This document shows positions 39,859-58,535 of a stretch of DNA of 64,000 bases, piece after piece. The stretch is from Candidatus Woesebacteria bacterium (GTDB lineage: Bacteria > Patescibacteriota > Microgenomatia > UBA12405). Under the pieces are notes generated by a model that saw only the letters and a list, made by a program, of their open reading frames with translations, made no database searches and was not told where the DNA came from. The stretch lies in assembly GCA_035450165.1 (NCBI GenBank), contig DAOTMI010000001.1:45888-109887 (forward strand). Reading direction: 5' to 3'. Position 1 is the stretch's first letter; every line of letters begins with the position of its first letter. Both the position numbers and the translations under genes were made by a program.

Positions 39859-39908
39859 GAGGGCATTATACCGTATTTTTCCTCTTTAATAAAAGCAATT
39901 AGTTAAAC

Positions 39909-40136
39909 TTACTTCTTAATTTTCTTAGGTTGAGAGTTAAATTTAACCGAGGGTAAAGATTCCAAAAACTTGGTTAAAAATTTGCCGCCGACGCTGAATA
40001 AATTGGAAGCTACTGTTACTAAGCTGGTTACCTCTTTGACATCCTTCAAAATCCCAATCAGATAAATACCAGCCACCACAATCACCACCGTGACGGCAAT
40101 CAAGCTAATAATTAAAATAATCGAAGCGGCATCCAT
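39909..40136 (-). CDS. small membrane protein
   Basis: 75 aa with one long TM (IILIISLIAVTVVIVVAGIYLIGIL) and a basic C-terminus. Confidence 0.4.
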   Translation of the reverse strand: MDAASIILIISLIAVTVVIVVAGIYLIGILKDVKEVTSLVTVASNLFSVGGKFLTKFLESLPSVKFNSQPKKIKK

Positions 40137-40156
40137 CTTGCGTTAGTATAAACTAA

Positions 40157-41575: not shown

Positions 41576-41701
41576 GAGTCAATTATAACCCCTCCCCTTT
41601 CACCAATCTCAATTGAATTTATTTTCCTTTCTTTACCCATAAATTATTTATTTTCTCAATTACTAACATAGAATAGTTGGGGCAAAATAATAATATACCG
41701 G

Positions 41702-42301
41702 TTATTTAAAAACAAACTCATCCCGGGAGACTTTCCCGGAAACAGATTGGGCCTCAACCACAATTTTATTGTCTTTTGGTGGATAATTTAAACTCTTACC
41801 AAAATGACCTTTTTCATCAACAACTACCAAGTCACCATTAATCTTGACCGTAGCATCATCAGCCGTTTCTCCCGATATTTCAACCGTTTCACTAGCAACC
41901 GGCAAAGACGGCCAATTGATCTTTAAAGGCGGCGGCGAATTATAGCGATAATATTCAAAAATTAAATAAGCGGCAAAAAGGAAAATGCCGATATAAATAA
42001 CACAAATAAAAGTGAATTGGGGTGTAAAGCTGAACTTCTCCCGGCGCCATGAGGCCGGCTTGGTTTTAACGTCAAAATCGCGGTGGAAAAGGGACAAAAT
42101 ATAGTCACCGTTCAGACCTAAATACTGGGCATAATCTTTCACCATCAACGAGCAGTAGGGTTCGGCTGGAAAATTTTTTTTATCTTCAGTTTCAAAAGCC
42201 TGAAGGTATTTGACTGGAATTTTCGTTTTCCGGGCAATTTCCTCCAGAGTTAATTCCTTCTCCAAGCGGGTAGTAGTCAAAATGCCAGCAGCTCGATACA
42301 T
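41702..42301 (-). CDS. rodZ: RodZ-like protein with an N-terminal HTH and a single TM
   Basis: 199 aa. HTH (LTLEEIARKTKIPVKYLQAFETEDKKNFPAEPYCSLMVKDYAQYLGL) closely parallels the RodZ N-domain. A TM follows (FICVIYIGIFLFAAYLIFEYY), then a small C-terminal domain. Confidence 0.6.
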   Translation of the reverse strand: MYRAAGILTTTRLEKELTLEEIARKTKIPVKYLQAFETEDKKNFPAEPYCSLMVKDYAQYLGLNGDYILSLFHRDFDVKTKPASWRREKFSFTPQFTFICVIYIGIFLFAAYLIFEYYRYNSPPPLKINWPSLPVASETVEISGETADDATVKINGDLVVVDEKGHFGKSLNYPPKDNKIVVEAQSVSGKVSRDEFVFK

Positions 42302-42339
42302 ACAATTTTAATTCAAAATTTAAAATTTTTAATATCTAT

Positions 42340-42364
42340 GACCAGCCTGCCGGACGGGCAGGTC
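42340..42364 (-). terminator. GC-rich hairpin at the ftsK stop. Second copy of the CCAGCCTGCCGG...GGCAGG palindromic element.
   Basis: gaccagcctgccggacgggcaggtc has a 6-bp CCTGCC/GGCAGG stem inside an outer GACC/GGTC. It overlaps the ftsK TAG stop and is followed by an AT-rich tract on the minus strand. Confidence 0.4.
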
Positions 42365-44445
42365 TATGATCTAATTTGGCGATGGGGAATCAAAATATCC
42401 CGAGGTTTGGCTCCTTTCGACGGGCCAACAATACCTGCTTTTTCCAGTTGATCAATAACCCGAGCCGCCCGGGCATAACCCAAGTTAAGTCGGCGCTGTA
42501 AAAATGATGAGGAAGCTTGACCACTCTCAGCAATCAATTTAACGGCTTGATCAAAAAGAGCATCCCTCTCCTCACCATCAACCGAAACAATATTTTTGCC
42601 GGCCGTACCCTTACCGGTAACTGGTTGGCTGACAATCTCATTGTTATAATTCGGTTGTTGTTGAGATTTGACAAACTCAATTAATTTATCCCGTTCTTTA
42701 TCAGAAACAAAGCAACCCTGAACCCGAATTGGTTTAGCCAATTCAGGGGGAATATACAACATATCACCCCGGCCAAGTAACTTTTCCGCCCCGGGTAAAT
42801 CAAGAATTACCCGAGAATCCATCATTGAAGTTACCGCAAAAGCAATTCGGGTAGGAATATTAGCCTTAATTAGACCCGTAATCACATTAACCGACGGATG
42901 TTGGGTAGAAAGAATCAAATGAATTCCAACCGCTCGGGCCATCTGGGCAATTCGACAAAGAGCCTCTTCGACTTCTGTCGGTGAAGCCATCATAATATCA
43001 TTTAACTCATCAATGATGATAAGAATATAAGGCATAGAAACAAAACCGGCTTTTTCATTTAAAGTCTCAATATTACGAACACCAGCCTCGGTAAGTTGAC
43101 GATAACGGTTTTCCATTTCTTTAATTGTCCATTTTAGGGCTGAAATAATTTTTTCCGGCTCAACAATTACCGGTTGAAGCAAATGGGGAATATCATTATA
43201 AGGTGTTAACTCAACTCTCTTGGGATCAACTAAAATCAGCTTTACCTCCTCTGGACTGGCTCGAAAAAGAAGGGTGCAAATCCAAGAATTAATACAAACT
43301 GATTTACCTGAATTAGTTTGACCGGCAATCAAAACGTGGGGCATTTTGGCAATATCAGCCACCTTTGGTCTACCAGCCACGTCTAAACCTAACGGAACCA
43401 TAATTTTAGATTTACTTTGCTTCATTACCTCCGACTCCAAAATAGCCCGCAAAGGTACGACTTGAAGGCTATGATTAGGCACTTCAATTCCTACTAAAGA
43501 TCGGCCGGGAATAGGAGCTTCAATCCTAACCTGACCGCCCGGAGCTGACAAAGCCATGGCCAAATCATTACTTAAGGAAACAATTTTAGCCAATTTTGTC
43601 CCCAAAGCTACCTCTAAGGCATACTGAGTAACTGAGGGGCTGTCGTTAATTTCAACTACTTTAGCGGTAATACCGAAAGAATCTAGAGTCTCTTCAATAG
43701 TCTTGGCATTCTTGCCAACATTACCCCGATCGGCTGGCGCCCCCAAACTGTTATCAAATAAAGTTATCGGCGGATATTGCCAAATTTGATTACTACCTAC
43801 CGGCACCGGTGATTTAAAGGGGGCATTAATAACATAATCTTCTATCTTTACCTGCTTTTCATCCTTTGTTTCGTCTTTAGGCGGTAAGGAAGAACCCAAC
43901 CGAGGCACTATTTTTTCCCTTCTTACCGTTGATTTAACTCCACTACCAACGGTATATTTTTTAATGGCTTTAAAAATCTTCACGCAAAATTTTACCAGCT
44001 GGGCAACATTAGTATCGAAAAGAATAACAAAACCGGCAATTAAACAGATAAAATAAACTATCGAACTAATTAGTTCGCCAAAGGAATTGATTAATAAGTC
44101 ACGGCAATAATTACCAACGATACCGGCTCGAAAAAGAGAAATCAAAGCAATAAACATGATTACAAACCCTAAAAAAATATTTGGTTCTTTCAGAGGAAAT
44201 TTAACTTTAACAAAAAGAAAGGCGGTAAGTAGAAATAAAAATGGAATAAAAACAGCTAAAAATCCGAAATAATTCTGTAATGTTAAACTAATTTTAGTCG
44301 GTATTGGTCCGATTTCTAAGAAAGAAAAAACCGTGATTATTGCCGCCATGAAAAAAAACAAAAACAAAATAGTCTGGAAAGTTTCTCTTTTTATTTTAAA
44401 AAGAGAAAAAAAACGGCGTTTTCTTTTTCTACCTCGTTTGGCCAT
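42364..44445 (-). CDS. ftsK: DNA translocase FtsK/SpoIIIE
   Basis: 693 aa. Four N-terminal TMs, a linker, a motor domain with Walker A GQTNSGKS and Walker B, and a C-terminal gamma winged-helix (SSFLQRRLNLGYARAARVIDQLEKAGIVG). Confidence 0.9.
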   Translation of the reverse strand: MAKRGRKRKRRFFSLFKIKRETFQTILFLFFFMAAIITVFSFLEIGPIPTKISLTLQNYFGFLAVFIPFLFLLTAFLFVKVKFPLKEPNIFLGFVIMFIALISLFRAGIVGNYCRDLLINSFGELISSIVYFICLIAGFVILFDTNVAQLVKFCVKIFKAIKKYTVGSGVKSTVRREKIVPRLGSSLPPKDETKDEKQVKIEDYVINAPFKSPVPVGSNQIWQYPPITLFDNSLGAPADRGNVGKNAKTIEETLDSFGITAKVVEINDSPSVTQYALEVALGTKLAKIVSLSNDLAMALSAPGGQVRIEAPIPGRSLVGIEVPNHSLQVVPLRAILESEVMKQSKSKIMVPLGLDVAGRPKVADIAKMPHVLIAGQTNSGKSVCINSWICTLLFRASPEEVKLILVDPKRVELTPYNDIPHLLQPVIVEPEKIISALKWTIKEMENRYRQLTEAGVRNIETLNEKAGFVSMPYILIIIDELNDIMMASPTEVEEALCRIAQMARAVGIHLILSTQHPSVNVITGLIKANIPTRIAFAVTSMMDSRVILDLPGAEKLLGRGDMLYIPPELAKPIRVQGCFVSDKERDKLIEFVKSQQQPNYNNEIVSQPVTGKGTAGKNIVSVDGEERDALFDQAVKLIAESGQASSSFLQRRLNLGYARAARVIDQLEKAGIVGPSKGAKPRDILIPHRQIRS

Positions 44446-45637
44446 ATTTCAGTATAGCATCATCAACCGGAATTATCTTGATTTTATTGCTATTTCGACG
44501 TTTTATTTCTATTCCGCCGGCTTGAAGACTTTTGGATGAAACAAGCCAGCGCCAGGGCAAACCGATTAAATCCGCATCGGTCAACTTAACTCCCGGAGTA
44601 ACTTCCTTCCGATCATCAAAAAGAACATTGTTCTCACCCAATTTATGGTAAATTTCTTCGGCTTTGGGATCAAGACCGACTAAATGAATCGGATAAGGCG
44701 CTGCTACTTCCGGCCAAATAATCCCCCGGTCATCATGAAAAACTTCCACCAAGGTCCCCATTAGACGGCTTGGTCCCAAACCATAACAACCCATTAAAAC
44801 CGGTCTTAACTCTCCCTGTTCATTGGTATAATTAAAACCGAAGGCAGCACTGAATTTAGTTCCCAGCTTAAAAATATTGGCGACTTCGATCGCCTTTTTC
44901 TCAACTAAATTGGCCGAATTACATTTAGGGCAGGTTTTTTGCTCTTCAATCAATTCCTTATTTACCGCCACTTGGCATTGATCACAAAGATAAATTAAAT
45001 CTTCACCGGTTGGGCAAATAGTCTGAAATTCATGAGAATATTTAGAAAAACTACCGCCGGAGGCATAAGTTAAAAAAGTAATTTCGCCTAAATTAAGGCG
45101 ATTAAAAATTCTTCGGTATGTCTCAATCACCTGATTATAAAACTTGTCCAAGTCTTTTTCGTCGGCATGAAAAGAGTAGAGATCTTTCATATTAAATTCC
45201 AAATTCCGTAATAAACCGGATTTAGCCCGAGGTTCATGCCTAAATTTTTCTTGAATTTGGTAAACAGCCAAAGGTAAATCCCGATAGGAAAAAACGTATT
45301 GCTGAACCAAAGGGGTAACAACTTCCTCATGGGTTGGATTTAAAACCAGCTGACCCAGCCGATAAAGAACAGTCAATTTATCGCGGCCGGTTTTCTGCCA
45401 CTTCTGACAAGAGGATAAAACCGGCAGTAAAATCTCCTGAGCCCCCAATTGATTCATTTCCTCCCGGACAATATTTTGAATTTTAGTCAATACCTGAAGG
45501 CCAAGAGGCAAATAGCTGTAAACACCGGCTAATTCCTTATTAATAAACCCGGCTTGAGTCAAAAGCTTGGCATTAATCGAATCGGCATCAGCGGCGATAT
45601 TTTTCGTTGTCCGGCCAAAAAGTTGAGAATAACGCAT
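44429..45637 (-). CDS. proS: prolyl-tRNA synthetase, compact form without an editing insertion and with a Zn-ribbon insertion
   Basis: 402 aa. MRYSQLFGRT...VYSYLPLGLQVLTKIQNIVREEMN is the ProRS motif 1 region. The anticodon-binding domain is present. CDQC...CPKC insertion. Confidence 0.8.
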   Translation of the reverse strand: MRYSQLFGRTTKNIAADADSINAKLLTQAGFINKELAGVYSYLPLGLQVLTKIQNIVREEMNQLGAQEILLPVLSSCQKWQKTGRDKLTVLYRLGQLVLNPTHEEVVTPLVQQYVFSYRDLPLAVYQIQEKFRHEPRAKSGLLRNLEFNMKDLYSFHADEKDLDKFYNQVIETYRRIFNRLNLGEITFLTYASGGSFSKYSHEFQTICPTGEDLIYLCDQCQVAVNKELIEEQKTCPKCNSANLVEKKAIEVANIFKLGTKFSAAFGFNYTNEQGELRPVLMGCYGLGPSRLMGTLVEVFHDDRGIIWPEVAAPYPIHLVGLDPKAEEIYHKLGENNVLFDDRKEVTPGVKLTDADLIGLPWRWLVSSKSLQAGGIEIKRRNSNKIKIIPVDDAILKYGQTR

Positions 45638-45821
45638 AAACTATTATAGCCCAATCAAATTACTTTTCTGACCCGGAACAGATCACTCTTTTTTCCTTGG
45701 CCAAAATTTTTCATTTTTATTCGCCCTTCTTGACGGAACGATTGAATTAGATTTTGAAGATTTTTATCAGGCATAATCTAAATTATACCCGTCGGGGTAA
45801 AATTACAACTCTTTTCTCAAT

Positions 45822-46565
45822 TTAGAACCGCAATTTATACAATCGGTTTAATACATCTAGATTTTTCCTTCTCATAATCAAAGTTGCTTCTTTATCACCA
45901 GTGGTGTCTCCCGACCTATTTTCAATAGAGTTCAATAAAATTTTATAAGCTCTAGAAGCCAGCTTACTTCGCATTGGATTGTTTTCTTCTATTAATCTCA
46001 GTATACCGACTATGGTTTCCCAGTTTTCCCAGGTTTTCCAGGTTTCCCAGACTTCCCAGTTACACGGTCGACTTTCCTCCTCCAATTTCCCGCTTACCTT
46101 TTTCTCTATCTCAGCCATATCAAGAAAGTCTTCGGCTGCCCAGCAACGAGCCCAATCAGGATCAGAAAATTCTTTTTGATCTCTGCTACCTAAAAAACTT
46201 AAATTTTCATCGACTAAAATAGCATACTCCCTTTTAATGCCTGCCTCATTAGTCGATTTTATTCCCTCAATCATCCTATCGTTTAAAACAAACAATAAAT
46301 TATTTCTCGATTCAAACGGCTCTATTTTTCTAACCATTTTGAGTAAAACTCTCAACTCTTCAGGATTCTTTTCTCCTGCCGCTATTGGACCCTTTTCATT
46401 CTCCTCTACAATATCGCTCCAAACATCGTCAACTTTCTCACTGTATTCTTTACGACCAATCCAACAACATTCTTCTTCACTCCCCCTGAAAACAAAATTC
46501 TTTTCAAACAAAGTAGAAGCGGTTTCATTTTCTCTTTTTTCAGTCATGTGACGTCTATATATCAT
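45822..46565 (-). CDS. hypothetical acidic protein with a tryptophan-periodic repeat (WEVWETWKTWENWET)
   Basis: 247 aa, very acidic, with no TM. The W-x-x repeat is encoded by the 9-bp tandem DNA repeat at 46014-46058. Confidence 0.5.
   Translation of the reverse strand: MIYRRHMTEKRENETASTLFEKNFVFRGSEEECCWIGRKEYSEKVDDVWSDIVEENEKGPIAAGEKNPEELRVLLKMVRKIEPFESRNNLLFVLNDRMIEGIKSTNEAGIKREYAILVDENLSFLGSRDQKEFSDPDWARCWAAEDFLDMAEIEKKVSGKLEEESRPCNWEVWETWKTWENWETIVGILRLIEENNPMRSKLASRAYKILLNSIENRSGDTTGDKEATLIMRRKNLDVLNRLYKLRF
46014..46058. repeat. 9-bp tandem repeat x5 (ggtttccca variants) within the CDS 45822-46565
   Basis: ggtttccca / gttttccca / ggttttcca / ggtttccca / gacttccca read directly. In-frame (3n) on the minus strand, encoding WE(V/T/N), WKT units. 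Confidence 0.8.
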
Positions 46566-46638
46566 AATAGAACAAAAAAGTCAACACAAGGTTTTCCATG
46601 TAGAGACGTCCGCCTAGGCGGATGGGGGGATTTCTAAT

Positions 46639-48351
46639 TTAGACTTCAATCACCAGCGGCAGAACCATCGGCTGGCGGCCGGTCTTATCAAAAATAATCT
46701 TTTCTAAATGGGCCTGAATTTCGGTCCGAATAAACTCAAAATTAGCTGGCTTACTGGTAGTCTGTTTAAATTTATTGGCAGCCTCAATTTTAAGATATTT
46801 CATTAAATCAGGATTGTCTTTAACAAAAACGAAGCCGCGGGAAAGAATTACCGGTTCTTTAAATAATTCACCGGTTTCTTTATTGACCAATAAAACTACT
46901 GAAAACATCCCATCTTCAGCCAAAGTTTTCCGATCCCGCAAAACCGTCAAACCAACATCGCCGATACCCAAACCGTCAATCAAAACTTTCTTTAACGGCA
47001 CCCGATAGGTTAAACTGACACCGCCGGATTGACTAAAAGTAATAGCCTGATCAAATTCCGGAGTAATAATCTGTTCATCCCGATAACCCAATTTTTTAGC
47101 CATTAATTGATAACTTCTTATATGACGAAAATTACCGCCAATAGGCAGCAAATATTTTGGTTTAAGCAAATTAATTAAAATCGCTTGTTCATGCTGATAA
47201 CCATGGCCGGTGACATGAAGCTCCTCTTTTTCACTGTAGGCTACTTCGGCGCCTAATCGGGAAAGGGTATCAATTAAATTATAAATATCGGTAGTCGTCC
47301 CTGGAATATAATCAGGGGAACTAAAAATCACCCGATCAGTGTTTTTAATTTTAATCTTGTGCTTGCCCATAACTATCTTGGATAAAGCTGAATCTGGTTG
47401 AGCTGAAAAGCCGGCGACTAAAAAAAGTAATTTGTTGTCCGGGAAATTTTTATGACTTTCTAGAGGAATAATATCGCTGGGTTGTAGTTTAAGATAACCC
47501 AAATCACGGGCGATATTAATCGCCTTTTCCACCGACATTCCCACTAAAACAATTTTTCGGCCGCAACTTTTGGCAGATTCAATGGCCTGTCCCCAGCGGA
47601 CAATATTACTGGAAATAGAAGTTACCAGCACCCGGCCTTTGGCCGAGACAATCTCCCGTTTAAAATTATCCGCAATTGAACTTTCGGATGGACTGTAACC
47701 CTCATGATCAGCTCCCAAACAATCAGACAGCAAACACAAAACCTGTTGATGGCTGTTAAGACGGGCGATATGGGCTAAATCAGTTACCTGGCCATCGAGG
47801 GGAAAAAGGTCAAATTTAAAGTCAGATCCATGATAACAAATACCTAATGGTGAGTGAATAGCGAGATGAAAAGTATCGGGAATAGAATGAGTGACCCGAA
47901 CCGGCTCAATGGTAAATGGACCACAATTAATTAATTGGCCCTCGTTGTAAAGATTTAATCGGCAATGAAGATTAAACTCAGCCAGCCGGGATTCAATGAA
48001 AGCCGCCGCCAATTTAGGCGCATAAATAGGAAATTTATTGCCTAATAAATTTAAGACAAAACGAATTGCTCCAATATGATCTTCGTGACCATGGGTAATA
48101 AACATACCTAAAATACGGTCTTTTTTATCTTGGAGATAAGTCGTATCAGGAATTTGAAGATCAACCCCGAAAGTGTCCTCTTCCGGAAAACCAGTACCGC
48201 AGTCAACAATAATAATCTGACTTCGGCTAAAATCGCCTTGAGGTGCTAATTCATAGACAAACATGTTTTGGGTCACATCGCCAAAACCACCGAGGGAAAT
48301 AATTCTCAATAAATCATTTCCTTGAGAAAAAGTTTTTTGAAATTTTTTCAT
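46639..48351 (-). CDS. rnj: ribonuclease J (metallo-beta-lactamase / beta-CASP)
   Basis: 570 aa. HxHxDH motif (ITHGHEDHIGA), beta-CASP and C-terminal domains. Confidence 0.85.
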   Translation of the reverse strand: MKKFQKTFSQGNDLLRIISLGGFGDVTQNMFVYELAPQGDFSRSQIIIVDCGTGFPEEDTFGVDLQIPDTTYLQDKKDRILGMFITHGHEDHIGAIRFVLNLLGNKFPIYAPKLAAAFIESRLAEFNLHCRLNLYNEGQLINCGPFTIEPVRVTHSIPDTFHLAIHSPLGICYHGSDFKFDLFPLDGQVTDLAHIARLNSHQQVLCLLSDCLGADHEGYSPSESSIADNFKREIVSAKGRVLVTSISSNIVRWGQAIESAKSCGRKIVLVGMSVEKAINIARDLGYLKLQPSDIIPLESHKNFPDNKLLFLVAGFSAQPDSALSKIVMGKHKIKIKNTDRVIFSSPDYIPGTTTDIYNLIDTLSRLGAEVAYSEKEELHVTGHGYQHEQAILINLLKPKYLLPIGGNFRHIRSYQLMAKKLGYRDEQIITPEFDQAITFSQSGGVSLTYRVPLKKVLIDGLGIGDVGLTVLRDRKTLAEDGMFSVVLLVNKETGELFKEPVILSRGFVFVKDNPDLMKYLKIEAANKFKQTTSKPANFEFIRTEIQAHLEKIIFDKTGRQPMVLPLVIEV

Positions 48352-48354
48352 AAA

Positions 48355-48930
48355 TTAATTAAAAATTAAAAAATTACCAATAGTTTGAAAATCTTCTTCT
48401 AAAGTTAATAACATGGCCCCATTTCGGAGGGCAGCTGCCGGGTGATAAACCGGAATAATTGTTAAATTCATTCCCTCCCAGGTTATTTCTTTAATTTGCC
48501 CTCTAATTCGGGAAATTAATTCGCCAGGGAAAAAATAATTCATCGCCACTCCGCCGAGAGCCACGATCAGCTTGGGTTGTAAAACTTTAAGCTGGGCTTT
48601 TAAAAAAGGCGTACAAGCTTGAATTTCTTCCGGCAAAGGATCCCGATTTAGCGGCGGCCGGTGTTTAAGAATATTACAAATAAACACATCTTTTCTTGAA
48701 ATGTCAATAGAGGCCAAAAGTTTATCAAGTAATTTACCGGCATTACCAACAAAAGGCAGGCCGCTTTTGTCTTCAAAAAAGCCGGGGGCTTCACCGACAA
48801 AAACAATTTTAGCTTCAGGATTACCCGAACCAGGAACTGGATGAGTAGCGTCCTGATAAAGATGGCATTTACGGCATTGATTTATTAGAGAAGAAATATA
48901 GGTTAATTGTTGAGATTTAGAAGCGGTCAT
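48355..48930 (-). CDS. uracil-DNA glycosylase, family 4
   Basis: 191 aa. N-terminal Cys ligands for a 4Fe-4S cluster (CRKCHL), the family-4 motif GEAPGFFED, GLPFVGNAGKLL, and the C-terminal HPAA. Confidence 0.8.
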   Translation of the reverse strand: MTASKSQQLTYISSLINQCRKCHLYQDATHPVPGSGNPEAKIVFVGEAPGFFEDKSGLPFVGNAGKLLDKLLASIDISRKDVFICNILKHRPPLNRDPLPEEIQACTPFLKAQLKVLQPKLIVALGGVAMNYFFPGELISRIRGQIKEITWEGMNLTIIPVYHPAAALRNGAMLLTLEEDFQTIGNFLIFN

Positions 48931-49955
48931 TGGCTAAGAAATTGCTTAATATTGGTTTCGTCGATAGTAATCGGACTGGCAGTTTGACGGGAAAAAATTA
49001 ACAAAGCCGCCCGGCGGGCAATCGCTTCCAGATTTCTCTTCAAAGTCCTAACCCCGGCGTCAAAACCCAAAGGTCGGATAATCAGCGGCCAAACAGATGG
49101 ACTAATCACCAAATCTTGACTGGTCAAACCACTTCCTGATAAAACTTTAGGTAACAAATAATCCCGGCCAATTACGGTTTTTTCTTCATCAGTATAAGCT
49201 GGCATCATTAACGGCTCCAGCCGATCTAAAACAGCTGTTGCCAACCGATTGGTGTTATTACAGGTGGCACAAAAAATCACTTGGGATAAATCAAAAGGAT
49301 AATCAAGATAACTATCGGTAAAATGATCATTTTGTTCAGGATCGAGTAATTCAACTAAAGTTCCCATAATTGAACTGAAAGCCGGATCGGCTATTCGATC
49401 AATTTCATCCAGTAAAATAACCGGATTATTAGTTTGAACTGTTTTTAAGGCTTTAATAATAGCTCCGGGTTCAGCTTCGGAATCAAAGCGGGAATGGCCT
49501 CGGAGGTAAAAAGGATCGCCTAAGCCGCCAAATGGGATCCGGACATAGTTCCGACCAAGAGCGGCGGCAATACTCTCGGCTAAAGTTGTCTTGCCGGTTC
49601 CAACTAAACCGACGAAAAGAAAAATCGGCGCCCGGGAAAAAGTTAAATTACCCCGCTGTTTCTGCAGGGCCAGCACCGAAATATATTCTAAAATGCGCTG
49701 TTTAATTTCCGTCAAGCCATAATGGTATTTATCTAATTGCTCCTTAGCATAGGTTAAATCTAAAATATCCTGACTTGATTTATGCCAAGGAAGAGTCAAA
49801 AACCAATTAACATAGCGGCTAGTTAAGGGGAAATTATGAAGATCCAATTCCGCTTCAGTTAAAACCTCTTTTAACTTTTCTTCCCCTCCAACCGGTAAAT
49901 GAGCTGCTGCCACTTTTTCCGTTAGCTGACGAACCAATTCCTTAATCTTGTCCAT
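48927..49955 (-). CDS. Lon-derived AAA+ ATPase module, free-standing. It lacks the LON N-domain and the S16 protease domain.
   Basis: 342 aa. VNWFLTLPWHKSS matches Lon LDWLLSLPWGK. Walker A (GLVGTGKTT). RIPFGGLGDPFYLRGHSRF matches Lon R(V)SLGGVRDEAEIRGHRRT. Walker B ILLDEID. LLDPEQN. Sensor 2 GVRTLKR. The ORF ends after the AAA+ alpha-subdomain. The next gene (UDG) overlaps it by 4 nt. Confidence 0.7.
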   Translation of the reverse strand: MDKIKELVRQLTEKVAAAHLPVGGEEKLKEVLTEAELDLHNFPLTSRYVNWFLTLPWHKSSQDILDLTYAKEQLDKYHYGLTEIKQRILEYISVLALQKQRGNLTFSRAPIFLFVGLVGTGKTTLAESIAAALGRNYVRIPFGGLGDPFYLRGHSRFDSEAEPGAIIKALKTVQTNNPVILLDEIDRIADPAFSSIMGTLVELLDPEQNDHFTDSYLDYPFDLSQVIFCATCNNTNRLATAVLDRLEPLMMPAYTDEEKTVIGRDYLLPKVLSGSGLTSQDLVISPSVWPLIIRPLGFDAGVRTLKRNLEAIARRAALLIFSRQTASPITIDETNIKQFLSQ

Positions 49956-50006
49956 TATAATCAGTATACCCTACTATCCCCGCTCAGGTGATAAATTAAA
50001 TCCTGC

Positions 50007-52208
50007 TTATGGCCGCCGATTCCGTTGTGGGCGGAGGTTGGGATGAAAATGGCTAAAAGACTGGGCCTGCCTGCCAGTAGGCATAGCCTGCCTGCGATTA
50101 GGCATAGCCTCACCCTGATGGGCCGCCTTAAATTCTGGAGCTGCCAAACGAATCTGATGATTTTCATTAAAACCAGCCACTTTAACATGCAACTTATCGC
50201 CTATTTTGATAATTTTCCGCGGGTCGGAAATAAAACCCTGACTCATTTCGGAAATATGCAGTAAAGCCTCACGCCCAGGTAAAAACTCAACAAAAACTCC
50301 ATAATCCTCAACTCGGGTAACCTGGCCGTTAAATTCCTCCCCGGTTCGAATTTCCCTAACCATCGAACTTATTTCAAAAGCAGCCGCCTTCACCTTAACC
50401 TCATCAGGGCCGGCGATATAGGCTTGACCATTATCTTCAATATCGATTTGCACTCCATATTTCTCCATTAAAGCCCGGATAGTCTTACCGCCAGAACCAA
50501 TAACATCACCAATTTTATCTTCAGGAATAACTACAACTTCGATTTTAGGAGCATAGGGTGATAATTCCTGTCTCGGGGCGGGCATAGTTTTATCGATTAA
50601 ATCAAGAATCTGCAATCTGGCTTGTAAACTTCTGGTAAAAGTTTCCTTAATCATCGGCAATGTCAAACCCCGGCATTTAACATCCAATTGAATCGCGGTA
50701 ATTCCTCCGCGGGTACCGGCAATCTTAAAATCCATGTCACCATAATGATCTTCAATCCCGGCAATATCAGTCAAAAGTAAATAGTTATTTTCACTTTCGG
50801 CTACCATACCGATCGAAATACCAGCAACTTTATCTTTAATCGGCACGCCGGCGTCTAAAAGCGATAAGGTTGAACCACAGGTAGAAGCCATCGAGGAAGA
50901 CCCGTTTTGAGACAAAATCTCAGAAGTCAGCATAATCAAATAAGGGAATTCTTCTTCAGAGGGAATAACCGGCATTAAGGCCTTTTCAGCCAAAGCTCCA
51001 TGACCGATTTCCCGACGACCTGGGCGGCCAACCCGACCTGTTTCACCAGTTGAAAAAGGCATCGCCGAATAATAGTGAATATAACGCTTAGTTGTTTCAC
51101 CACTGCTATCCTGTAGATACTGTCTATCAGCCAAAGTCGACAAAGTAGTGACGGTTAAAGCCTGGGTTAAACCTCGTTGAAATAAAGCCGAACCATGGGT
51201 ACAAGGAAGAACCCCAACCGTCATTGATAACGGCCGGATTTCCTCTATGCCTCGACCGTCAAAACGCCGGCCAGCTAAAGCTCTCTGGCGAAAATACTTT
51301 TTCACAATTTGAGCCAAAGCTTCCTTTAAAATATTGGGGTTGACTTCTTCGGCTTTTATTTGGTCATCATAAAGGGCTAGAATCTTCTCTACTAATTTTT
51401 TTTCACCTTCAATATGCTTACCATCAGCACCATGATCTAAAAATTCTTCGACTTCATCTTTAATTTGACCTTCCAATTGATCAACTAATTCTTTTGTTGG
51501 CAGATATGGCTCAAAAGCTATTTTTGATTTCTGAAATGAAGCCGTAAAGTGTTTAATCTGGTCATTAATTTCTTCGCCATTATTTTTAGCCAGTTCTATT
51601 GCCTGATAAGCTAACTCATTATCAACCATTTGGGCGCCGGCTTCAATCATATTGACTCCAGCCGGGCCGGTACACACTAATAAATCTAACTCTGATTGAT
51701 TTAATTCGCTAACTGATGGAAATAATTTTAATTCATGATTAATCAGACCTACCCGAACAATTGCTACGGGTCCATCAAAAGGAATATCGGAGGCAGTCAA
51801 AGCCGCCGCCGCCGCTAAAAAGGCAGGTACTACCGGATCATGTTCCTTATCATTACTTAAAACAGTAGTAATTATCTGAACTTCATGGTGAAAACCATTG
51901 GGAAATAAAGGTCGCAAAGAACGATCAATAATCCGGCCAAAAAGAATCGCCGCATCCGAGGGTGCTCCTTCCCGTTTCATCCATTTACCGCCTTTAATAA
52001 GACCGCCGGCATATAATCTATCAGCATATTCTACCGACAAAGGAAAATAATCCTTAGTTTCGTCTAATTCTCCTAAGACTACCGTGGCTAAGACCACCGT
52101 TCCTCCCCAACGAGCTATTATTGATCCGTTAGTTTGAGGTGCTAAAATCCCGGCCTCTAGGGTAAAGTCCGCTCCCCCTAGGGAAAGCTTCATGATTTTT
52201 TTCTCCAT
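50007..52208 (-). CDS. pnp: polyribonucleotide nucleotidyltransferase (PNPase) with a basic low-complexity C-terminal tail
   Basis: 733 aa. Two RNase PH domains plus KH and S1. A tail (AMPNRRQAMPTGRQAQ...RPQRNRRP) follows S1. It is encoded by a GC-rich 21-bp imperfect direct repeat at 50065-50109. Confidence 0.92.
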   Translation of the reverse strand: MEKKIMKLSLGGADFTLEAGILAPQTNGSIIARWGGTVVLATVVLGELDETKDYFPLSVEYADRLYAGGLIKGGKWMKREGAPSDAAILFGRIIDRSLRPLFPNGFHHEVQIITTVLSNDKEHDPVVPAFLAAAAALTASDIPFDGPVAIVRVGLINHELKLFPSVSELNQSELDLLVCTGPAGVNMIEAGAQMVDNELAYQAIELAKNNGEEINDQIKHFTASFQKSKIAFEPYLPTKELVDQLEGQIKDEVEEFLDHGADGKHIEGEKKLVEKILALYDDQIKAEEVNPNILKEALAQIVKKYFRQRALAGRRFDGRGIEEIRPLSMTVGVLPCTHGSALFQRGLTQALTVTTLSTLADRQYLQDSSGETTKRYIHYYSAMPFSTGETGRVGRPGRREIGHGALAEKALMPVIPSEEEFPYLIMLTSEILSQNGSSSMASTCGSTLSLLDAGVPIKDKVAGISIGMVAESENNYLLLTDIAGIEDHYGDMDFKIAGTRGGITAIQLDVKCRGLTLPMIKETFTRSLQARLQILDLIDKTMPAPRQELSPYAPKIEVVVIPEDKIGDVIGSGGKTIRALMEKYGVQIDIEDNGQAYIAGPDEVKVKAAAFEISSMVREIRTGEEFNGQVTRVEDYGVFVEFLPGREALLHISEMSQGFISDPRKIIKIGDKLHVKVAGFNENHQIRLAAPEFKAAHQGEAMPNRRQAMPTGRQAQSFSHFHPNLRPQRNRRP

Positions 52209-52212
52209 ATTT

Positions 52213-52482
52213 TTATTTTTTCAAATCAAGTTCTTTGATTAGTTTACCGTAACGTTCGGCGGCATGAGAGGAAAGATAACGCAATAACCGGCGGCGCTTG
52301 GCTATTTTAGTTAATAAACCACGCTTAGCCGGAGTATCATGTTTATTCTCAGTCAAATGAAATTGCAGTTTTTCGATCTCTTTAGTTAAAATCGCTACTT
52401 GAATTTCAGGCGAACCGGTATCCCCTTTATTCTGGGCAAATTTTCTAATAATATCCGCTTTTTCTTCTTTGGACAAAGCCAT
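52213..52482 (-). CDS. rpsO: 30S ribosomal protein S15
   Basis: 89 aa. MALSKEEKADIIRKF...TGSPEIQVAILT...HLTENKHDTPAKRGLL. Confidence 0.93.
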   Translation of the reverse strand: MALSKEEKADIIRKFAQNKGDTGSPEIQVAILTKEIEKLQFHLTENKHDTPAKRGLLTKIAKRRRLLRYLSSHAAERYGKLIKELDLKK

Positions 52483-52548
52483 AAGATAGGGCTATCTTCG
52501 GTAAATCACTAATAAAATATCTTACCGACATGATAGTTACAGAGGCTA

Positions 52549-52815
52549 TTATAACACACTTTTTTTTATACAGGGCCGATTGGCCCCAGTAGGAGCGAGA
52601 TAGGAATCACACTCAGCTTCGCCGTAAACCGGTTTAGTCTGACAATTGCCGCAGGACTCCAAAACAACTCTAATTTTAACTTCGGCTGGCACGGCTGGAT
52701 TCCGAAGCAATCTTAAAAAGGTTTCCTTATCCTCTTGATATTGACTAGGATGATCAAAACTCAGCCATGGCGTGAATTTTGAACATTGGCCGCAACGCAA
52801 AATTTTTTCTTTCAT
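52549..52815 (-). CDS. small cysteine-rich protein (putative C4 zinc-binding)
   Basis: 88 aa with CGQC...CGNC plus two more Cys. Translationally coupled to the upstream DHH-like gene by a 4-nt overlap. Confidence 0.45.
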   Translation of the reverse strand: MKEKILRCGQCSKFTPWLSFDHPSQYQEDKETFLRLLRNPAVPAEVKIRVVLESCGNCQTKPVYGEAECDSYLAPTGANRPCIKKSVL

Positions 52816-53621
52816 ACAGTTGAAACGGAACTTGGCTGGAGGTTCCCAAATAAATCGCCTTTAGACTCAATTTTTTCTAAGGGAGTTACATTATCGAAAG
52901 GATTCAACTCACCCGCCGACGGATTTTCCACTTGAGTCGCCCGTAAGCAGGCAGCCCCAGCTTCAAAGGTTTCCGGAGAAACATTTACTGAAAAAGATTG
53001 GGTGGCTACCCGTAGACCAATTAACAGGTTTTTGGCCGCTTCAAATTTGAAGGGCAGAGCTAGCATCGGAATTAAAAACGCCATAATTTCAGCAAAAGGA
53101 GCATCGGGATCAATAATACTCGCCTGCGCCCATGATTTTTCCATTGGCATAGAACTAATTAAAACCCATTGGCCACGATTAACAATATCAGCCGCCTTAC
53201 CCAACTTGGTTTCATCACCCAGCATAAAATTAATATCCGCCAAAGATGATTGATTATTAATTATAATCTGATCACGCTCAATTTTAGGGGAGTTAGCTTT
53301 AGTTTTGACAACTAAATTCAGCCGGCCGCCATCCTCGTTATAAGCCACTGTTTCAATGCTTTCCTGAGGATAATCTAAGGTAATCACTAAACCGTTGGCA
53401 CTATAAACATTACTTAACAACTCCAAACCACTTAATTTGGAATAATTAGCATCAGGTTTTTGAGGACAAAAAACCTGAACAGACAAGCCAGTATCTTTTA
53501 ACGATAACGCCAAAGCTAGGGCAGAACTAACACTGTCCAAACTCAATTCCGGCACGGCGATAAAAGCACTTTTGGCACCGTCAAGTAAAACCTTAATTGA
53601 TGAAATATTATAAGTTTTCAT
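52812..53621 (-). CDS. hypothetical protein, possibly a degenerate DHH-phosphoesterase (NrnA-like) fold lacking the catalytic DHH motifs
   Basis: 269 aa. The N-terminal pattern AFIAVPELSLDSVSSALALALSLKDTGLSVQVF parallels the NrnA hxHxxPDGDAxGSxxAL...G..V region, but with Asp/His replaced. The assignment is weak. Confidence 0.35.
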   Translation of the reverse strand: MKTYNISSIKVLLDGAKSAFIAVPELSLDSVSSALALALSLKDTGLSVQVFCPQKPDANYSKLSGLELLSNVYSANGLVITLDYPQESIETVAYNEDGGRLNLVVKTKANSPKIERDQIIINNQSSLADINFMLGDETKLGKAADIVNRGQWVLISSMPMEKSWAQASIIDPDAPFAEIMAFLIPMLALPFKFEAAKNLLIGLRVATQSFSVNVSPETFEAGAACLRATQVENPSAGELNPFDNVTPLEKIESKGDLFGNLQPSSVSTV

Positions 53622-55003
53622 CGAGTGAACGCTAGTATACCATCTTTTACTTTGAAATCAACATAAGGTTTAAAAGTTAAACCGCATTCGTTACCGGCCT
53701 TAACTTTATCTACGGCTATTTTTCCCTGTCGAAGACTATCTATTTTGGTGTCTTTAGTAATACCGTCGGCTCTTTTAACATGAACCAAATCACCTTTAGT
53801 TAGCTCACCTTTAGTTACTTTCACCCCGGCGATCCGAGTCTTTTCAATTTTAAATTCAGCAATAATTTCACCTTCTCCCAAAACTGTCTCGTCAATCGTT
53901 GGTTCAAGCAAATGAAGAATTTTATTTTGGATATCGTCAATAATTTCATAAATAATCTTTGACTGAATCACTTTTACTTGCTCATTTTCGGCTAATTTTT
54001 GGATAAATAAGGGAAAATCAACATTGAAAGCATAAATAGCGGCCTTACCGGCACCAGCCAAAAAAACATCATTATCGTTTACGGCACCGACTCCGGCTTC
54101 CAAAATCAAGACGTCGTCAGTTAAACAGTTTCTAATTGCCTCTAGGGTTCCCTGAGTGTCAGCCTTAAGAATAATTTTTAATTTATTGGAAGCGGTAGAA
54201 TCAGCAGTCAATTTGGCCGCAGGGACAGTCGCAACCTGTTGGGGTTGTTTGGTAATTACCGAACCTACCGGCGGCACTGCTTCACAGCCCAGAATCACTA
54301 CTGGTGTTGATGGCCCTGCCGAATCAATCTTTTTCCCGTTATCATCAATTAAAGCTCGAACTTTGCCGCTAATAGAACCGGCATAAATAATATCGCCTGT
54401 CTTGACTGTTCCTTTCTCAACCACCGCTGTGGCTATCGGCCCTCGATTTTTATCCAAACAGGATTCAATCACGGCCGCCAATAAAGGAGCTTCTGGTTCT
54501 GCCTTAAGATCAAGTAAATCAGCCAGTAATTTAATAGTTTCCAGTAATTTATCGATACCCTCACCGGTTTTGGCAGAAATAGCCAGACAGGGAACATCAC
54601 CACCATATTCCTCGGGAGTAAAACCGGCTTCAATCAATTGACCTTTAACTTTATCAGGGGCAAAACCGGCCAAATCTTTCTTATTAAGAGCGACTATCAA
54701 GGGCAATTTAAATTCTTTAACCAACTTCAGGCACTCTTTGGTTTGAGCCATCACTCCCTCAGTACCGGCAATAACCAAAACAACTATATCGGTAATTTTC
54801 GCTCCTCTTGCCCGCATATTGATAAAAGCGGCATGGCCGGGAGTATCAATAAAGGTAATTCCCTTGGCTTGGTAAGCATTGATATGCTGAGTAATACCGC
54901 CAGTTTCCTTAGCACAAACATTGGTCGATCTGATCTTATCCAGCAAAGTAGTTTTGCCGTGGTCGATATGACCCATAATAGTAACAATTGGTGGACGAAA
55001 CAT
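53618..55003 (-). CDS. infB: translation initiation factor IF-2, short form (G domain plus C-terminal domains only)
   Basis: 461 aa. It starts at the G domain ([30 protein letters not shown]) with beta-barrel domains after. Confidence 0.9.
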
Positions 55004-55025
55004 AAAATAAATTTATAATTTCTAA

Positions 55026-56024
55026 TTAACTTTGGGTCTCTTTTCTAGCGGCGATTTTGATTTCCAAACCGGTCAAAACGCCGGCTAAACGGACATTTTC
55101 GCCGCCGCCGCCAATAGCTAGAGCTAACTGATCCTCCGGCACCGTAACCTGAGCTATGCCGTTCTCAATAGCTTCAACCCGAACACCATTGGCAGGAGAA
55201 AGGGCAGCAATAATAAATTGATTTAAATTTTTAGAGAAAAGAATTACATCAACTTTTTCTTCTGCCGGCAGTTCATTTAAAACCGATTGAATCCGGCTGC
55301 CTTTTTGACCGATGCAAGAGCCAACCGGATCAACACCGGGTTGACTGGAAGCCACCGCTACTTTAGTCCGCTCTCCGGGTGTCCGAGCAATCTTTTCAAC
55401 CCTAACGACCCGGTTACTTACTTCCGGCACTTCTCGGGCAAATAGTTCCTTAATGAAATTGTTATCTCGGCGGGAAAGGATCACCTCACTCTGACCAGTG
55501 ATTTCATCCCGAAAAATTTCTTTGATCAAAAATAATTTCTTAGCTCCTAAGGGAAGATTTTCCCCTTTAATTTGTTCGTCTTTAGGACAAATTGCTTCTG
55601 TCTTCCCAACGCCAATTACCAGTTTACTGGGATCAGATCGGAAAACCACCCCTGTTACCAAACTCCCTACTTTTTTCTGAAACTCAGCAATAATTACCTC
55701 TTTTTCCGCCTCATAAATTTTTTGGTCAATAACCTGTTTAGCAGTTTGGGCGGCAATTCGGCCAAAATCAGGCGGTGTTACCTCAAGTCTTTTGTCTCCT
55801 TCAATTTTAAAAACTTTAAATAAACCCGATTCCGGCGATAAATCAACCTCAAACTGATCCTCGTCGGGAATAACGATACCATGCTCCCTCTGATTTCGTT
55901 TGTAGGCAGAAATCAAACCGGCTTCAATTGAGTCTAAAATCAACTGGGGATCAATATTCCGCTCCCCGGCAATTTGAGCCACCGCTTGGGCAAATTCGGT
56001 TTTAGGTAACCTTTTAAGATCCAT
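55026..56024 (-). CDS. nusA: transcription termination/antitermination factor NusA (no AR1/AR2)
   Basis: 332 aa. N-terminal domain, S1, and two KH domains (GSCIGQKGSRIQSV..., ALAIGGGGENVRLAGVLTG). Confidence 0.9.
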   Translation of the reverse strand: MDLKRLPKTEFAQAVAQIAGERNIDPQLILDSIEAGLISAYKRNQREHGIVIPDEDQFEVDLSPESGLFKVFKIEGDKRLEVTPPDFGRIAAQTAKQVIDQKIYEAEKEVIIAEFQKKVGSLVTGVVFRSDPSKLVIGVGKTEAICPKDEQIKGENLPLGAKKLFLIKEIFRDEITGQSEVILSRRDNNFIKELFAREVPEVSNRVVRVEKIARTPGERTKVAVASSQPGVDPVGSCIGQKGSRIQSVLNELPAEEKVDVILFSKNLNQFIIAALSPANGVRVEAIENGIAQVTVPEDQLALAIGGGGENVRLAGVLTGLEIKIAARKETQS

Positions 56025-56160
56025 AATTTTTTCTAAAAAAAATGGGGACCCACTATCCCCATCTCTTTGAGCTTAATTTAAACTAAACTTAACTTTGGGT
56101 AATTATAGCATGAAAAAGCCTTGGGGAAAAATCACAATTCAAATTAAATCCCCCTCTAAT

Positions 56161-56180
56161 CCCCCTTTGACAAAAGGGGG
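56161..56180. promoter_or_regulatory. strong GC hairpin (8-bp stem, 4-nt loop) in the nusA-upstream intergenic region
   Basis: cccccttt-gaca-aaaggggg. There is no clean U-tract on either strand, so terminator versus leader structure is unresolved. Confidence 0.3.
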
Positions 56181-56244
56181 GATATTAAGCAGTGGTGTTA
56201 ATCCGCCTTTGGCGGACAGAGAGATTCCAATTGACATTGGAAAT

Positions 56245-57540: not shown

Positions 57541-57599
57541 CGGCTAGTCAATTTTAACAAAAACTTCTAAATTAACTCCAAGGGGCCATTTCAACCTTT

Positions 57600-58532: not shown

Positions 58533-58535
58533 AAA

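What the first reader, a model, noticed from the sequence alone, without database searches (positions are those of the whole stretch)
48927..49955. Free-standing Lon AAA+ module with neither N-domain nor protease domain
The 342-aa protein aligns motif by motif with the Lon ATPase core. This includes the LPWxK segment, Walker A/B, the GG...RGHRRT-like loop, LLDPEQN, the arginine finger and sensor 2. It starts roughly where the Lon coiled-coil region ends and stops right after the AAA+ alpha-subdomain. The following gene (a family-4 UDG) overlaps it by 4 nt and the preceding gene is pnp. No S16 peptidase domain is therefore encoded nearby in any frame. All ATPase catalytic residues look intact, which suggests a functional chaperone or unfoldase split off from Lon rather than a decayed pseudogene.
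Basis: partly seen in the sequence, partly recalled or inferred. Interest (0 to 1): 0.6.

Follow-up and report, generated by a model that had tools for sequence, protein, structure and literature searches.

The report
Protease-less Lon ATPase of CPR bacteria
This gene encodes only the ATP-burning motor module of the Lon protease, with no protease and no substrate-recognition domain; it belongs to a conserved, undescribed family in tiny-genome (CPR) bacteria that kept the ATPase site but lost the residues Lon uses to grip and thread proteins.

Summary
ORF 48927..49955 (minus strand, 342 aa) is a complete LonA AAA+ module (three-helix bundle, alpha/beta domain, lid) and nothing else. It lies between pnp and a family-4 UDG that it overlaps by 4 nt. 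No Lon N-domain or S16 protease is encoded in any frame of the 64-kb window. It is not a frameshift or a pseudogene. More than 110 homologue clusters (57-73% identity) have the same 330-374-aa architecture. All 24 sampled protease-less relatives (Microgenomates group, Dojkabacteria) form one clade within LonA (200/200 NJ bootstraps). Walker A/B, the Arg finger and sensor 2 are kept in 24/24; dN is 0.21 while synonymous sites are saturated. The substrate-gripping pore loops are not Lon-like: RGHRRTY[IVL]G, nearly invariant in canonical Lons, is replaced by an acidic, Pro-containing loop (here RGHSRFDSEAEPG, with Asp at the Tyr position). The pore-loop-2 aromatic position is Ala, and the module is acidic (pI about 5.5, against 8.9 for E. 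coli). The best reading is an oligomeric ATPase derived from Lon that no longer threads substrates into a protease, most likely a remodelling or regulatory factor. Its function is unknown. Whether these genomes also keep a canonical Lon could not be tested.

The parts
48927..49955 (-). Free-standing LonA-type AAA+ module gene, 342 aa plus stop codon (48927..48929)
49791..49955 (-). aa 1-55: N-terminal three-helix bundle (3H) that opens the Lon AAA+ module. The protein starts at the position of the hinge that joins the long N-terminal helix of full-length Lon.
   Evidence: AF2 helices 2-17, 24-37, 39-54; Ec Lon residue 244 aligns to aa 1; 3H definition and linker 238-243 in PMC8519571
49587..49610 (-). 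Walker A GLVGTGKT (aa 116-123)
   Evidence: K122/T123 kept in 24/24 clade members
49464..49502 (-). Pore-loop-1 segment RGHSRFDSEAEPG (aa 152-164). Lon's Tyr-Ile/Val-Gly is Asp-Ser-Glu here. The loop is acidic and mostly Pro-containing in the family.
49404..49421 (-). Walker B VILLDE (aa 179-184)
49362..49400 (-). Pore-loop-2 segment DRIADPAFSSIMG (aa 186-198). Ala192 stands at the position of MtaLonA Trp431 / Ec Met432.
49254..49259 (-). Sensor-1 Asn pair N233-N234
49221..49223 (-). Arginine finger R245 (Ec R484)
48930..49193 (-). aa 255-342: alpha-helical lid subdomain (Pfam Lon_lid), including sensor-2 R303 (49047..49049). The protein ends within a few residues of the lid.
50007..52208 (-). 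pnp (PNPase), the upstream gene, 51-nt gap; preceded by rpsO 52213..52482
48355..48930 (-). Family-4 uracil-DNA glycosylase, 4-nt overlap with the AAA+ gene
46639..48351 (-). RNase J, 3 nt after the UDG gene; last gene of the tightly packed rpsO-pnp-lonAAA-udg-rnj run

Best explanation
The gene encodes a functional stand-alone AAA+ ATPase. It descends from a LonA protease that lost both its N-terminal substrate-recognition domain and its S16 protease domain in an ancestor of CPR lineages (Microgenomates group, Dojkabacteria). It has been inherited vertically since then, in Microgenomates within the rpsO-pnp ... ftsK backbone. Shown: the architecture, its conservation, monophyly of the clade, intact nucleotide-binding and hydrolysis residues, purifying selection, and replacement of both canonical pore loops. 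Inferred: it assembles into a ring or spiral oligomer, because a trans-acting Arg finger is only useful between subunits, and it hydrolyses ATP. Also inferred: because the aromatic-hydrophobic-Gly pore loop 1 and the aromatic pore loop 2 are gone and replaced by a conserved acidic, Pro-containing loop, it does not thread polypeptides processively as Lon does. It more likely uses ATP-driven conformational change to bind, remodel or release a specific partner (a chaperone-like or regulatory role). The acidic loop and the acidic surface would favour a basic protein as partner.
For: Architecture. The whole-length fold is the Lon AAA+ module: pLDDT 89.9, pTM 0.84; TM 0.80-0.88 to LonA/LONP1, and 0.88/0.89 to the isolated Lon AAA+ domain 6n2i. 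Family: the top 120 clusters have only AAA+Lon_lid domains, and 115 of them are 325-380 aa. In the sample, every relative scoring above ~256 bits ends 1-8 residues after the lid. The tails of P0164 and P0166 are low-complexity sequence, not Lon_C. Monophyly: 200/200 NJ bootstraps. ATPase residues: 24/24; 112 invariant columns among 39 sequences. Selection: dN 0.21, pS 0.77. Pore loops: Tyr position Y53/H37/N12/R8/S2/D1/V1 in 116 core members, followed by Pro in 98. Across the clade the position is Y1 and F3 of 24, against Y26 and W1 of 27 canonical Lons; the Gly is kept in 1/24 against 27/27. These residues are required in MtaLonA (PMC8503904). Acidic module: pI 5.3-5.6 against 8.9. Same operon in the 73% relative, and a conserved backbone position in 40-58% relatives.
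Against: There is no biochemical evidence. Oligomerisation is inferred only from conservation of the Arg finger; in Lon the protease domain contributes to hexamer formation (my own knowledge, not tested here). About half of the core family keeps a Tyr at the pore-loop-1 position and a few members have Phe, so some substrate gripping cannot be excluded. The NJ tree is a simple distance method. A partner protease encoded elsewhere in the genome cannot be excluded, because only 64 kb was available.
Confidence: 0.6

Rival explanations
1. It is a true stand-alone unfoldase or disaggregase. It forms a hexamer that threads and unfolds proteins through its pore without degrading them, like ClpB or ClpX acting alone.
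For: All ATPase residues and the Lon fold are intact. The 3H bundle that forms the entry portal is retained. 53 of 116 core members keep a Tyr at the pore-loop position. Proteolysis-independent roles of Lon have been proposed (PMC7072132).
Against: The aromatic-hydrophobic-Gly signature is absent in 24/24 clade representatives. The hydrophobic residue is Pro and the Gly is Asp/Glu. This window's copy has Asp at the Tyr position. The pore-loop-2 aromatic position is Ala. Both residues are required for translocation in LonA. [quoted passage not shown]
Confidence: 0.2
2. It is the ATPase half of a two-gene Lon. It docks onto a separately encoded S16 (Lon_C) protease, or co-assembles with or regulates a canonical full-length Lon encoded elsewhere in the genome.
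For: Canonical Lon is widespread in other Patescibacteria, so a partner could exist. Split AAA+/protease systems (ClpXP, HslUV) are the norm (established knowledge; PMC7072132).
Against: There is no Lon_C or N-domain in any frame of the 64-kb window or of L001-L003. No protease gene was seen in the flanks (about 8-10 kb each side) of the six loci listed. Downstream neighbours vary between lineages. Pore loops that would feed a protease are lost. No contig-length overlap was found between contigs carrying the short form and contigs carrying canonical Lon; this is weak, because both lists are truncated at 120. The named canonical-Lon carrier is outside the Microgenomates group.
Confidence: 0.1
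3. It is an RNA-decay accessory ATPase working with PNPase and RNase J, as a substitute for a degradosome helicase. The basis is its position in the rpsO-pnp-X-udg-rnj operon.
For: Gene packing is tight: gaps of 4, 51, -4 and 3 nt, with no intergenic terminator-like site. The position between pnp and rnj is conserved in Shapirobacteria- and Woesebacteria-type relatives.
Against: One to four unrelated genes separate it from pnp, from rnj, or from both in other members. The context is unrelated in Dojkabacteria, and in Roizmanbacteria the gene is flanked by convergent genes. The module and its pore loop are acidic. The basic residues that I recall as implicated in E. coli Lon DNA binding (R306, K308, K310, K311; from memory, paper not found) are S, Q, I and L here. 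The adjacency is best explained by a conserved chromosomal backbone.
Confidence: 0.07
4. It is a decaying remnant of lon or an assembly or frameshift artefact.
For: CPR genomes are reduced. The score against the lon equivalog model is below its cut-off.
Against: Length and motifs are conserved in >110 clusters from many samples. An identical sequence occurs on an independent contig. dN is far below dS. The flanking sequence encodes PNPase and UDG with full-length matches, which leaves no room for missing domains.
Confidence: 0.02

Closest known systems
LonA protease (endopeptidase La, MEROPS S16; E. coli Lon, B. subtilis LonA, M. taiwanensis LonA, human LONP1)
   Same: The AAA+ module is homologous along its whole length (35-45% identity; TM 0.80-0.88). 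It has the same 3H bundle, alpha/beta domain and Lon-specific lid, the same Walker A/B, sensor 1, Arg finger and sensor 2, and the LDPEQN motif.
   Different: There is no N-terminal globular domain or long helix and no S16 protease domain. Pore loop 1 (RGHRRTY[IVL]G) and the pore-loop-2 aromatic residue are replaced. The module is acidic instead of basic. It forms a separate long-branch clade.
LonC (for example M. taiwanensis LonC) and AAA-less Lon-like proteases
   Same: They are precedents for Lon relatives that have lost one of the two activities (PMC3391209 and PMC13069640, listed).
   Different: Those proteins keep the protease and lose ATPase activity. This family does the opposite: it keeps the ATPase site and loses the protease.
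Stand-alone HCLR-clade AAA+ partners (ClpX, HslU, ClpA/ClpB)
   Same: They are free-standing AAA+ polypeptides of the same broad clade that form rings with trans Arg fingers (established knowledge).
   Different: Those proteins have aromatic-hydrophobic pore loops and, for ClpX/ClpA/HslU, specific protease-docking elements. Neither is seen here, and there is no large insertion relative to Lon. By sequence the nearest relatives are Lon, not Clp or HslU.
BrxL and other Lon-like defence proteins
   Same: They contain Lon-related domains.
   Different: PADLOC gives only weak generic P-loop hits (best IetA, 26 bits) and no BrxL match. The gene sits in a conserved housekeeping backbone, not a defence island.

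Membership tests
LonA protease (endopeptidase La, TIGR00763 / MEROPS S16) | S16 serine-lysine protease domain (Pfam Lon_C) fused C-terminally to the AAA+ module | tested here: not met
   No Lon_C in Pfam. The protein ends at the lid. tblastn with Ec Lon 580-784 finds nothing in the window. The classification paper states that all Lons contain ATPase and protease domains (PMC9569914 abstract).
LonA protease (endopeptidase La, TIGR00763 / MEROPS S16) | N-terminal LON substrate-binding domain and long helix | tested here: not met
   No PF02190. tblastn with Ec Lon 1-250 finds nothing. The ORF starts 51 nt after the pnp stop.
LonA protease (endopeptidase La, TIGR00763 / MEROPS S16) | Score at or above the curated equivalog cut-off | tested here: not met
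   297.7 bits vs 608.05 (TIGR00763); 212.9 vs 891 (NF008053).
LonA protease (endopeptidase La, TIGR00763 / MEROPS S16) | Lon-type AAA+ module with Lon lid and catalytic residues | tested here: met
   Pfam AAA + Lon_lid; residue mapping; fold.
LonA protease (endopeptidase La, TIGR00763 / MEROPS S16) | Pore-loop-1 aromatic-hydrophobic-Gly (RGHRRTY[IVL]G) and an aromatic or bulky pore-loop-2 residue | tested here: not met
   Asp158-Ser159-Glu160 and Ala192. The signature is absent in 24/24 clade members, against 26 Tyr and 1 Trp in 27 canonical Lons.
Classical AAA+ ATPase (functional, oligomeric) | Walker A GxxGxGK[TS], Walker B hhhhDE, sensor-1 polar residue, trans Arg finger, sensor-2 Arg | tested here: met
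   K122/T123, D183/E184, N233/N234, R245, R303; conserved 24/24 except sensor 1, which depends on alignment register.
Classical AAA+ ATPase (functional, oligomeric) | ATP hydrolysis and hexamer formation | not testable with these tools
   Requires purified protein (ATPase assay, SEC-MALS or cryo-EM).
Protease-less Lon-AAA clade of CPR bacteria (defined here; unnamed in Pfam and NCBIfam) | Ends within 8 residues of the Lon lid or carries only a low-complexity tail; acidic S[RK]xxP[DE]AEPG loop; falls in the monophyletic clade | tested here: met
   The query groups with P0002/P0004 inside the core family (200/200).
BREX BrxL / known anti-phage AAA+ proteins | Significant match to a PADLOC model and a defence-island context | tested here: not met
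   Best PADLOC hit is 26 bits (IetA, partial) and there is no BrxL match. The neighbourhood is housekeeping.

The most novel reading that the evidence does not exclude
In the Microgenomates group and Dojkabacteria, Lon protease has been replaced outright by a protease-less descendant. Its conserved acidic, non-aromatic pore loop would define a new working mode for an HCLR-clade AAA+ ring: an ATP-driven remodeller or holdase specific for basic clients (for example ribosomal or nucleoid proteins, or the RNA-decay enzymes it is co-transcribed with), rather than a threading motor. It would then be a natural experiment that isolates the long-debated proteolysis-independent activity of the Lon ATPase.
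Probability: 0.2. Interest if true: 0.75.

Novelty: new variant of a known kind. Interest (0 to 1): 0.55.

Why it matters
Lon is defined as the AAA+ protease in which the motor and the protease lie on one chain, and every recognised subfamily (LonA, LonB, LonC) keeps the protease. This family is a widespread, vertically inherited lineage that kept the motor's catalytic site under selection while discarding the protease, the recognition domain and the canonical substrate-gripping loops. It is routinely mislabelled 'ATP-dependent Lon protease' or left as 'AAA family ATPase', so proteostasis inventories of CPR genomes that count it as Lon would be wrong. It also offers a natural system for asking what a Lon ATPase ring does without proteolysis, a question that reviews describe as unresolved. 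Finally, it gives a clear sequence signature (S[RK]xxP[DE]AEPG in place of HRRTY[IV]GAMPG) for annotating the family.

Tried and rejected
1. A scan of genome contigs with the query used patterns too specific to this copy. Apart from DPEQN they matched almost nothing, so the scan mostly returned canonical Lons.
2. I tried to test whether a canonical Lon co-occurs in the same genome by matching 'longest_contig' values between short-form hits and canonical Patescibacteria Lon hits. There was no overlap, but both lists are cut at 120, so this is only weak evidence.
3. The first tree script timed out. It was redone with numpy distances.
4. Literature searches found no description of a protease-less LonA-type ATPase in CPR bacteria.
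5. The paper I remember on E. coli Lon DNA-binding lysines was not in the library, so that point rests on memory.
6. A defence-system reading was rejected (PADLOC).
7. The pseudogene or frameshift reading was rejected.
8. A ClpP/HslV-docking reading was considered. No insertion relative to Lon exists that could form a docking loop. This was not tested further.
9. Rfam and tRNA scans of the window found nothing.
Full report
**Observation**

The ORF exists exactly as described, on the minus strand: 48927..49955, ATG start, 342 aa.
- Pfam reports only an AAA domain (aa 113-247) and the Lon-specific lid (Lon_lid, aa 275-324). It reports no Lon_C and no LON_substr_bdg.
- The NCBIfam equivalog model for Lon (TIGR00763) matches only its positions 250-569 of 795. 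The E-value is 2e-88, but the score of 297.7 bits is far below the 608-bit cut-off.
- The best solved-structure matches are LonA and LONP1 chains (E~1e-64), aligned from the start of their AAA+ modules to the end of the lid.
- E. coli Lon residues 244-580 align to 49955..48933. The E. coli N-domain (1-250) and protease domain (580-784) find nothing by tblastn in any frame of the 64-kb window or of three related loci.
- The neighbours are as stated. PNPase lies upstream at 50007..52208, with a 51-nt gap. A family-4 UDG at 48355..48930 overlaps by 4 nt (ATGA). RNase J follows at 46639..48351, 3 nt further on. All three pass their curated cut-offs.
- These flanking genes are full-length, so no missing Lon domain can be hidden by a frameshift.

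**Anatomy**

The AlphaFold2 model is confident (pLDDT 89.9, pTM 0.84). It superposes over its whole length on LonA/LONP1 AAA+ modules, with TM 0.80-0.88. Against the crystallised isolated Lon AAA+ domain 6n2i it gives TM 0.88/0.89.

The first three helices (aa 2-17, 24-37, 39-54) are the three-helix bundle. Full-length Lon structures count this bundle as the start of the AAA+ module. It is joined to the long N-terminal helix by a hinge or linker at residues 238-243 of MtaLonA (PMC8519571). The protein therefore begins at that hinge and ends a few residues after the lid. It is the complete structural AAA+ module and nothing more.

Catalytic residues map one-to-one onto E. coli Lon:
- Walker A: K122/T123
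- Walker B: D183/E184
- Sensor 1: N233/N234
- Arg finger: R245
- Sensor 2: R303

**It is a family, not an accident**

- The 120 best homologue clusters (57-73% identity) all have AAA+Lon_lid only. Of these, 115 are 325-380 aa long.
- Sources name them 'AAA family ATPase' or 'ATP-dependent Lon protease', from Candidatus Shapirobacteria, Woesebacteria and unclassified Patescibacteria.
- In the sample I analysed, every relative scoring above about 256 bits ends 1-8 residues after the lid, while N-termini vary from 0 to 370 extra residues. Canonical Lons, with 130-350 residues after the lid, appear at about 250 bits and below.
- Two clade members with longer tails (P0164, P0166) carry low-complexity S/N/Q-rich sequence there, not a protease.
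- A neighbour-joining tree of the module (51 sequences, 335 columns) places all 24 protease-less representatives in one long-branch clade nested among LonA sequences. The clade was recovered in 200 of 200 bootstraps. This is a simple distance method.
- Named members of the wider clade include Roizmanbacteria (L005; a 361-aa free-standing ORF) and Dojkabacteria.
- Shapirobacteria belong to the Microgenomates group of the Patescibacteria.
- An independent JGI contig encodes an identical 290-aa stretch of this window's protein.
- Against the gene of the closest relative (73% identity), dN is 0.21 while synonymous sites are saturated (pS 0.77).
- Among 39 family members, 112 alignment columns are invariant.
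- The pseudogene and artefact readings are therefore rejected.

The ATPase site is fixed, but the substrate-gripping loops are not Lon-like.
- In 25 of the 27 canonical Lons sampled, including a Patescibacteria Lon, pore loop 1 reads RGHRRTY[IVL]G. One has Lys for the second Arg, and one divergent form reads RGHNRTWLG.
- In the 116-member core family, the Tyr position is Y53/H37/N12/R8/S2/D1/V1. The next residue is Pro in 98. The loop continues [E/D]-[A/S]-E-P-G.
- Across the 24 clade representatives, the Tyr position holds one Tyr and three Phe. The Gly is kept once (27/27 in canonical Lons). The Met/Leu two positions later is Glu in 21.
- This window's copy is the extreme case: Asp158-Ser159-Glu160.
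- The pore-loop-2 position that is Trp431 in MtaLonA (Met432 in E. coli) is Ala192 here, and Ala in 112 of 116 core members.
- The cryo-EM study of substrate-engaged MtaLonA reports that Tyr397 and Trp431 contact the substrate and that both are required for degradation (PMC8503904).
- The flanks of the loop are strongly conserved in the family: S155 116/116, R156 113, E162 112, P163 114, G164 116. So the loop is constrained, but as an acidic, Pro-containing element with a variable apex.
- The module as a whole is acidic (pI 5.3-5.6, net charge about -6 to -7). The E. coli module has pI 8.9 and net charge +5.

**Context**

- The window is core genome: ribosomal-protein operons, tuf, fusA, alaS, ftsK, proS, rnj, pnp, rpsO, infB and nusA. 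The 3.7-kb and 3.3-kb ORFs at 25170..32160 are presumably rpoB/rpoC and were not scanned.
- None of the 44 scanned ORFs of 150 aa or more is a protease. The only peptidase-like gene is a sortase.
- The run rpsO-pnp-lonAAA-udg-rnj is tightly packed, with no terminator-like site in the intergenic gaps.
- The 73%-identical relative has the same arrangement, including the 4-nt overlap with UDG.
- In 57-58% relatives, zero to three unrelated small genes separate the gene from pnp. One to three other genes (for example a Gmad2 protein) lie before UDG or RNase J.
- In the most divergent member (40% identity), the gene still lies between rpsO-pnp and ftsK, but four genes away from pnp.
- In Dojkabacteria the neighbourhood is unrelated, and in Roizmanbacteria the gene is flanked by convergent genes.
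- The position is best read as a conserved chromosomal backbone, which indicates vertical inheritance rather than a tight functional pairing.
- PADLOC gives only weak generic P-loop hits.

**Mechanism**

Shown:
- a stand-alone Lon-derived AAA+ module;
- intact nucleotide-binding and hydrolysis residues;
- purifying selection;
- loss of the protease, the N-domain and both canonical pore loops.

Inferred:
- The strict conservation of the trans-acting Arg finger implies oligomeric assembly and ATP hydrolysis.
- The replacement of the aromatic-hydrophobic-Gly paddle by an acidic, Pro-containing loop implies that it no longer threads polypeptides as Lon does.
- It more likely uses ATP-driven conformational change to bind, remodel or release a partner, plausibly a basic protein.

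I put about 0.6 on this 'non-threading remodeller or regulator' reading.

Rival readings:
- A genuine unfoldase gets about 0.2, because half of the core family still has a Tyr at the apex.
- The ATPase half of a two-gene Lon, or a Lon co-subunit, gets about 0.1. No partner was seen in the window or in any of the six relatives' loci whose gene tables I read, and there is no pore loop to feed a protease.
- An RNA-decay accessory gets about 0.07, because the evidence is positional only and the protein is acidic.
- The basic residues I recall as implicated in E. coli Lon DNA binding (R306, K308, K310, K311) are S, Q, I and L here. That assignment is from memory, since the paper was not found.

**What could not be settled**

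I could not determine whether these genomes also keep a canonical Lon or a separate Lon_C protein.
- Canonical Lon is widespread and well conserved in other Patescibacteria (65-72% identity over 120 clusters).
- The one named candidate-phylum carrier among those hits (a Pacebacteria MAG) is classified in Minisyncoccota, not the Microgenomates group.
- None of the contigs carrying canonical Lon shares a length fingerprint with contigs carrying the short form.
- This is consistent with replacement of Lon in these lineages, but the lists are truncated and whole genomes could not be searched.

**Comparison with what is known**

The closest known family is LonA, and the protein works with a LonA-type ATPase site.
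- It fails the defining membership features of Lon: no protease domain, no N-domain, a score below the equivalog cut-off, and no canonical pore loops.
- The Lon classification literature states that all Lons contain both ATPase and protease domains (PMC9569914).
- Known reduced relatives go the other way. LonC keeps the protease but lacks ATPase activity, and there are AAA-less Lon-like proteases (PMC3391209 and PMC13069640).
- I found no paper describing a protease-less LonA-type ATPase.
- Reviews describe an intrinsic, proteolysis-independent chaperone activity of Lon as unresolved (PMC7072132).

**Verdict**

I rate it a new variant of a known kind. It is a member of a sizeable CPR-restricted family that is present in databases under generic or wrong names but, as far as I could find, undescribed. 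Interest is 0.55.

Noticed in passing
Proteins P0121-P0136 and others (not in the window): The top-scoring representatives are 900-1700-aa proteins with two or three tandem Lon-type AAA+ modules (2-3 Walker A/B pairs). P0121 has three Lon_lid domains followed by Lon_C, and many others carry the Lon_C motif DGPSAG. Most lack the canonical RGHRRTY pore loop in a regex check. P0121 is from Candidatus Dependentiae. One (P0127) is a Brassica napus gene model and may be a fusion artefact.
   Followed up: partly
window 12834..24668: The str operon is interrupted. Between rpsG (24189..24668) and fusA (15160..17265) lie a LytR_C protein, rmlB, rmlC and rmlD (dTDP-rhamnose synthesis) and a plus-strand amine oxidase. 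A DUF1861 gene (14143..15153, E=1e-99) sits between fusA and tuf.
   Followed up: no
window 60001..64000: GC drops sharply to 25-27%, against 36-43% elsewhere. The genes here are a PMT_2-type glycosyltransferase (60398..61951), a GT2 glycosyltransferase (61978..62958) and an FrhB/FdhB-like protein (62960..63817). This may be a horizontally acquired cell-envelope glycosylation island.
   Followed up: no
window 45822..46565 (-): A 247-aa ORF with no Pfam, NCBIfam or PADLOC match and a Trp-rich periodic stretch (NWEVWETWKTWENWET). It occupies a variable slot between rnj and proS that holds different genes in relatives (L001, L002) and no called gene in L045.
   Followed up: partly
window 44429..45637 (-): The prolyl-tRNA synthetase is short (402 aa) and has no ProRS-C_1 domain hit. 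The same is true of the closest relative (404 aa, L045). More distant relatives have 472-478-aa versions with that domain (L001, L002).
   Followed up: no
window 52549..53621 (-) and 56245..60329 (-): Several conserved ORFs have no family match: 269 aa and 88 aa between infB and rpsO (equivalents of 251-268 aa and 76-123 aa occur at the same place in relatives), and 431-aa and 597-aa ORFs upstream of nusA. In relatives the dnaK-dnaJ heat-shock cluster lies directly upstream of nusA, but it does not here.
   Followed up: no
window 1..64000: No tRNA genes and no Rfam families at gathering threshold in 64 kb, even though the window spans the ribosomal-protein operons and the rpsO-pnp region, where leader RNAs are known in model bacteria.
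   Followed up: partly
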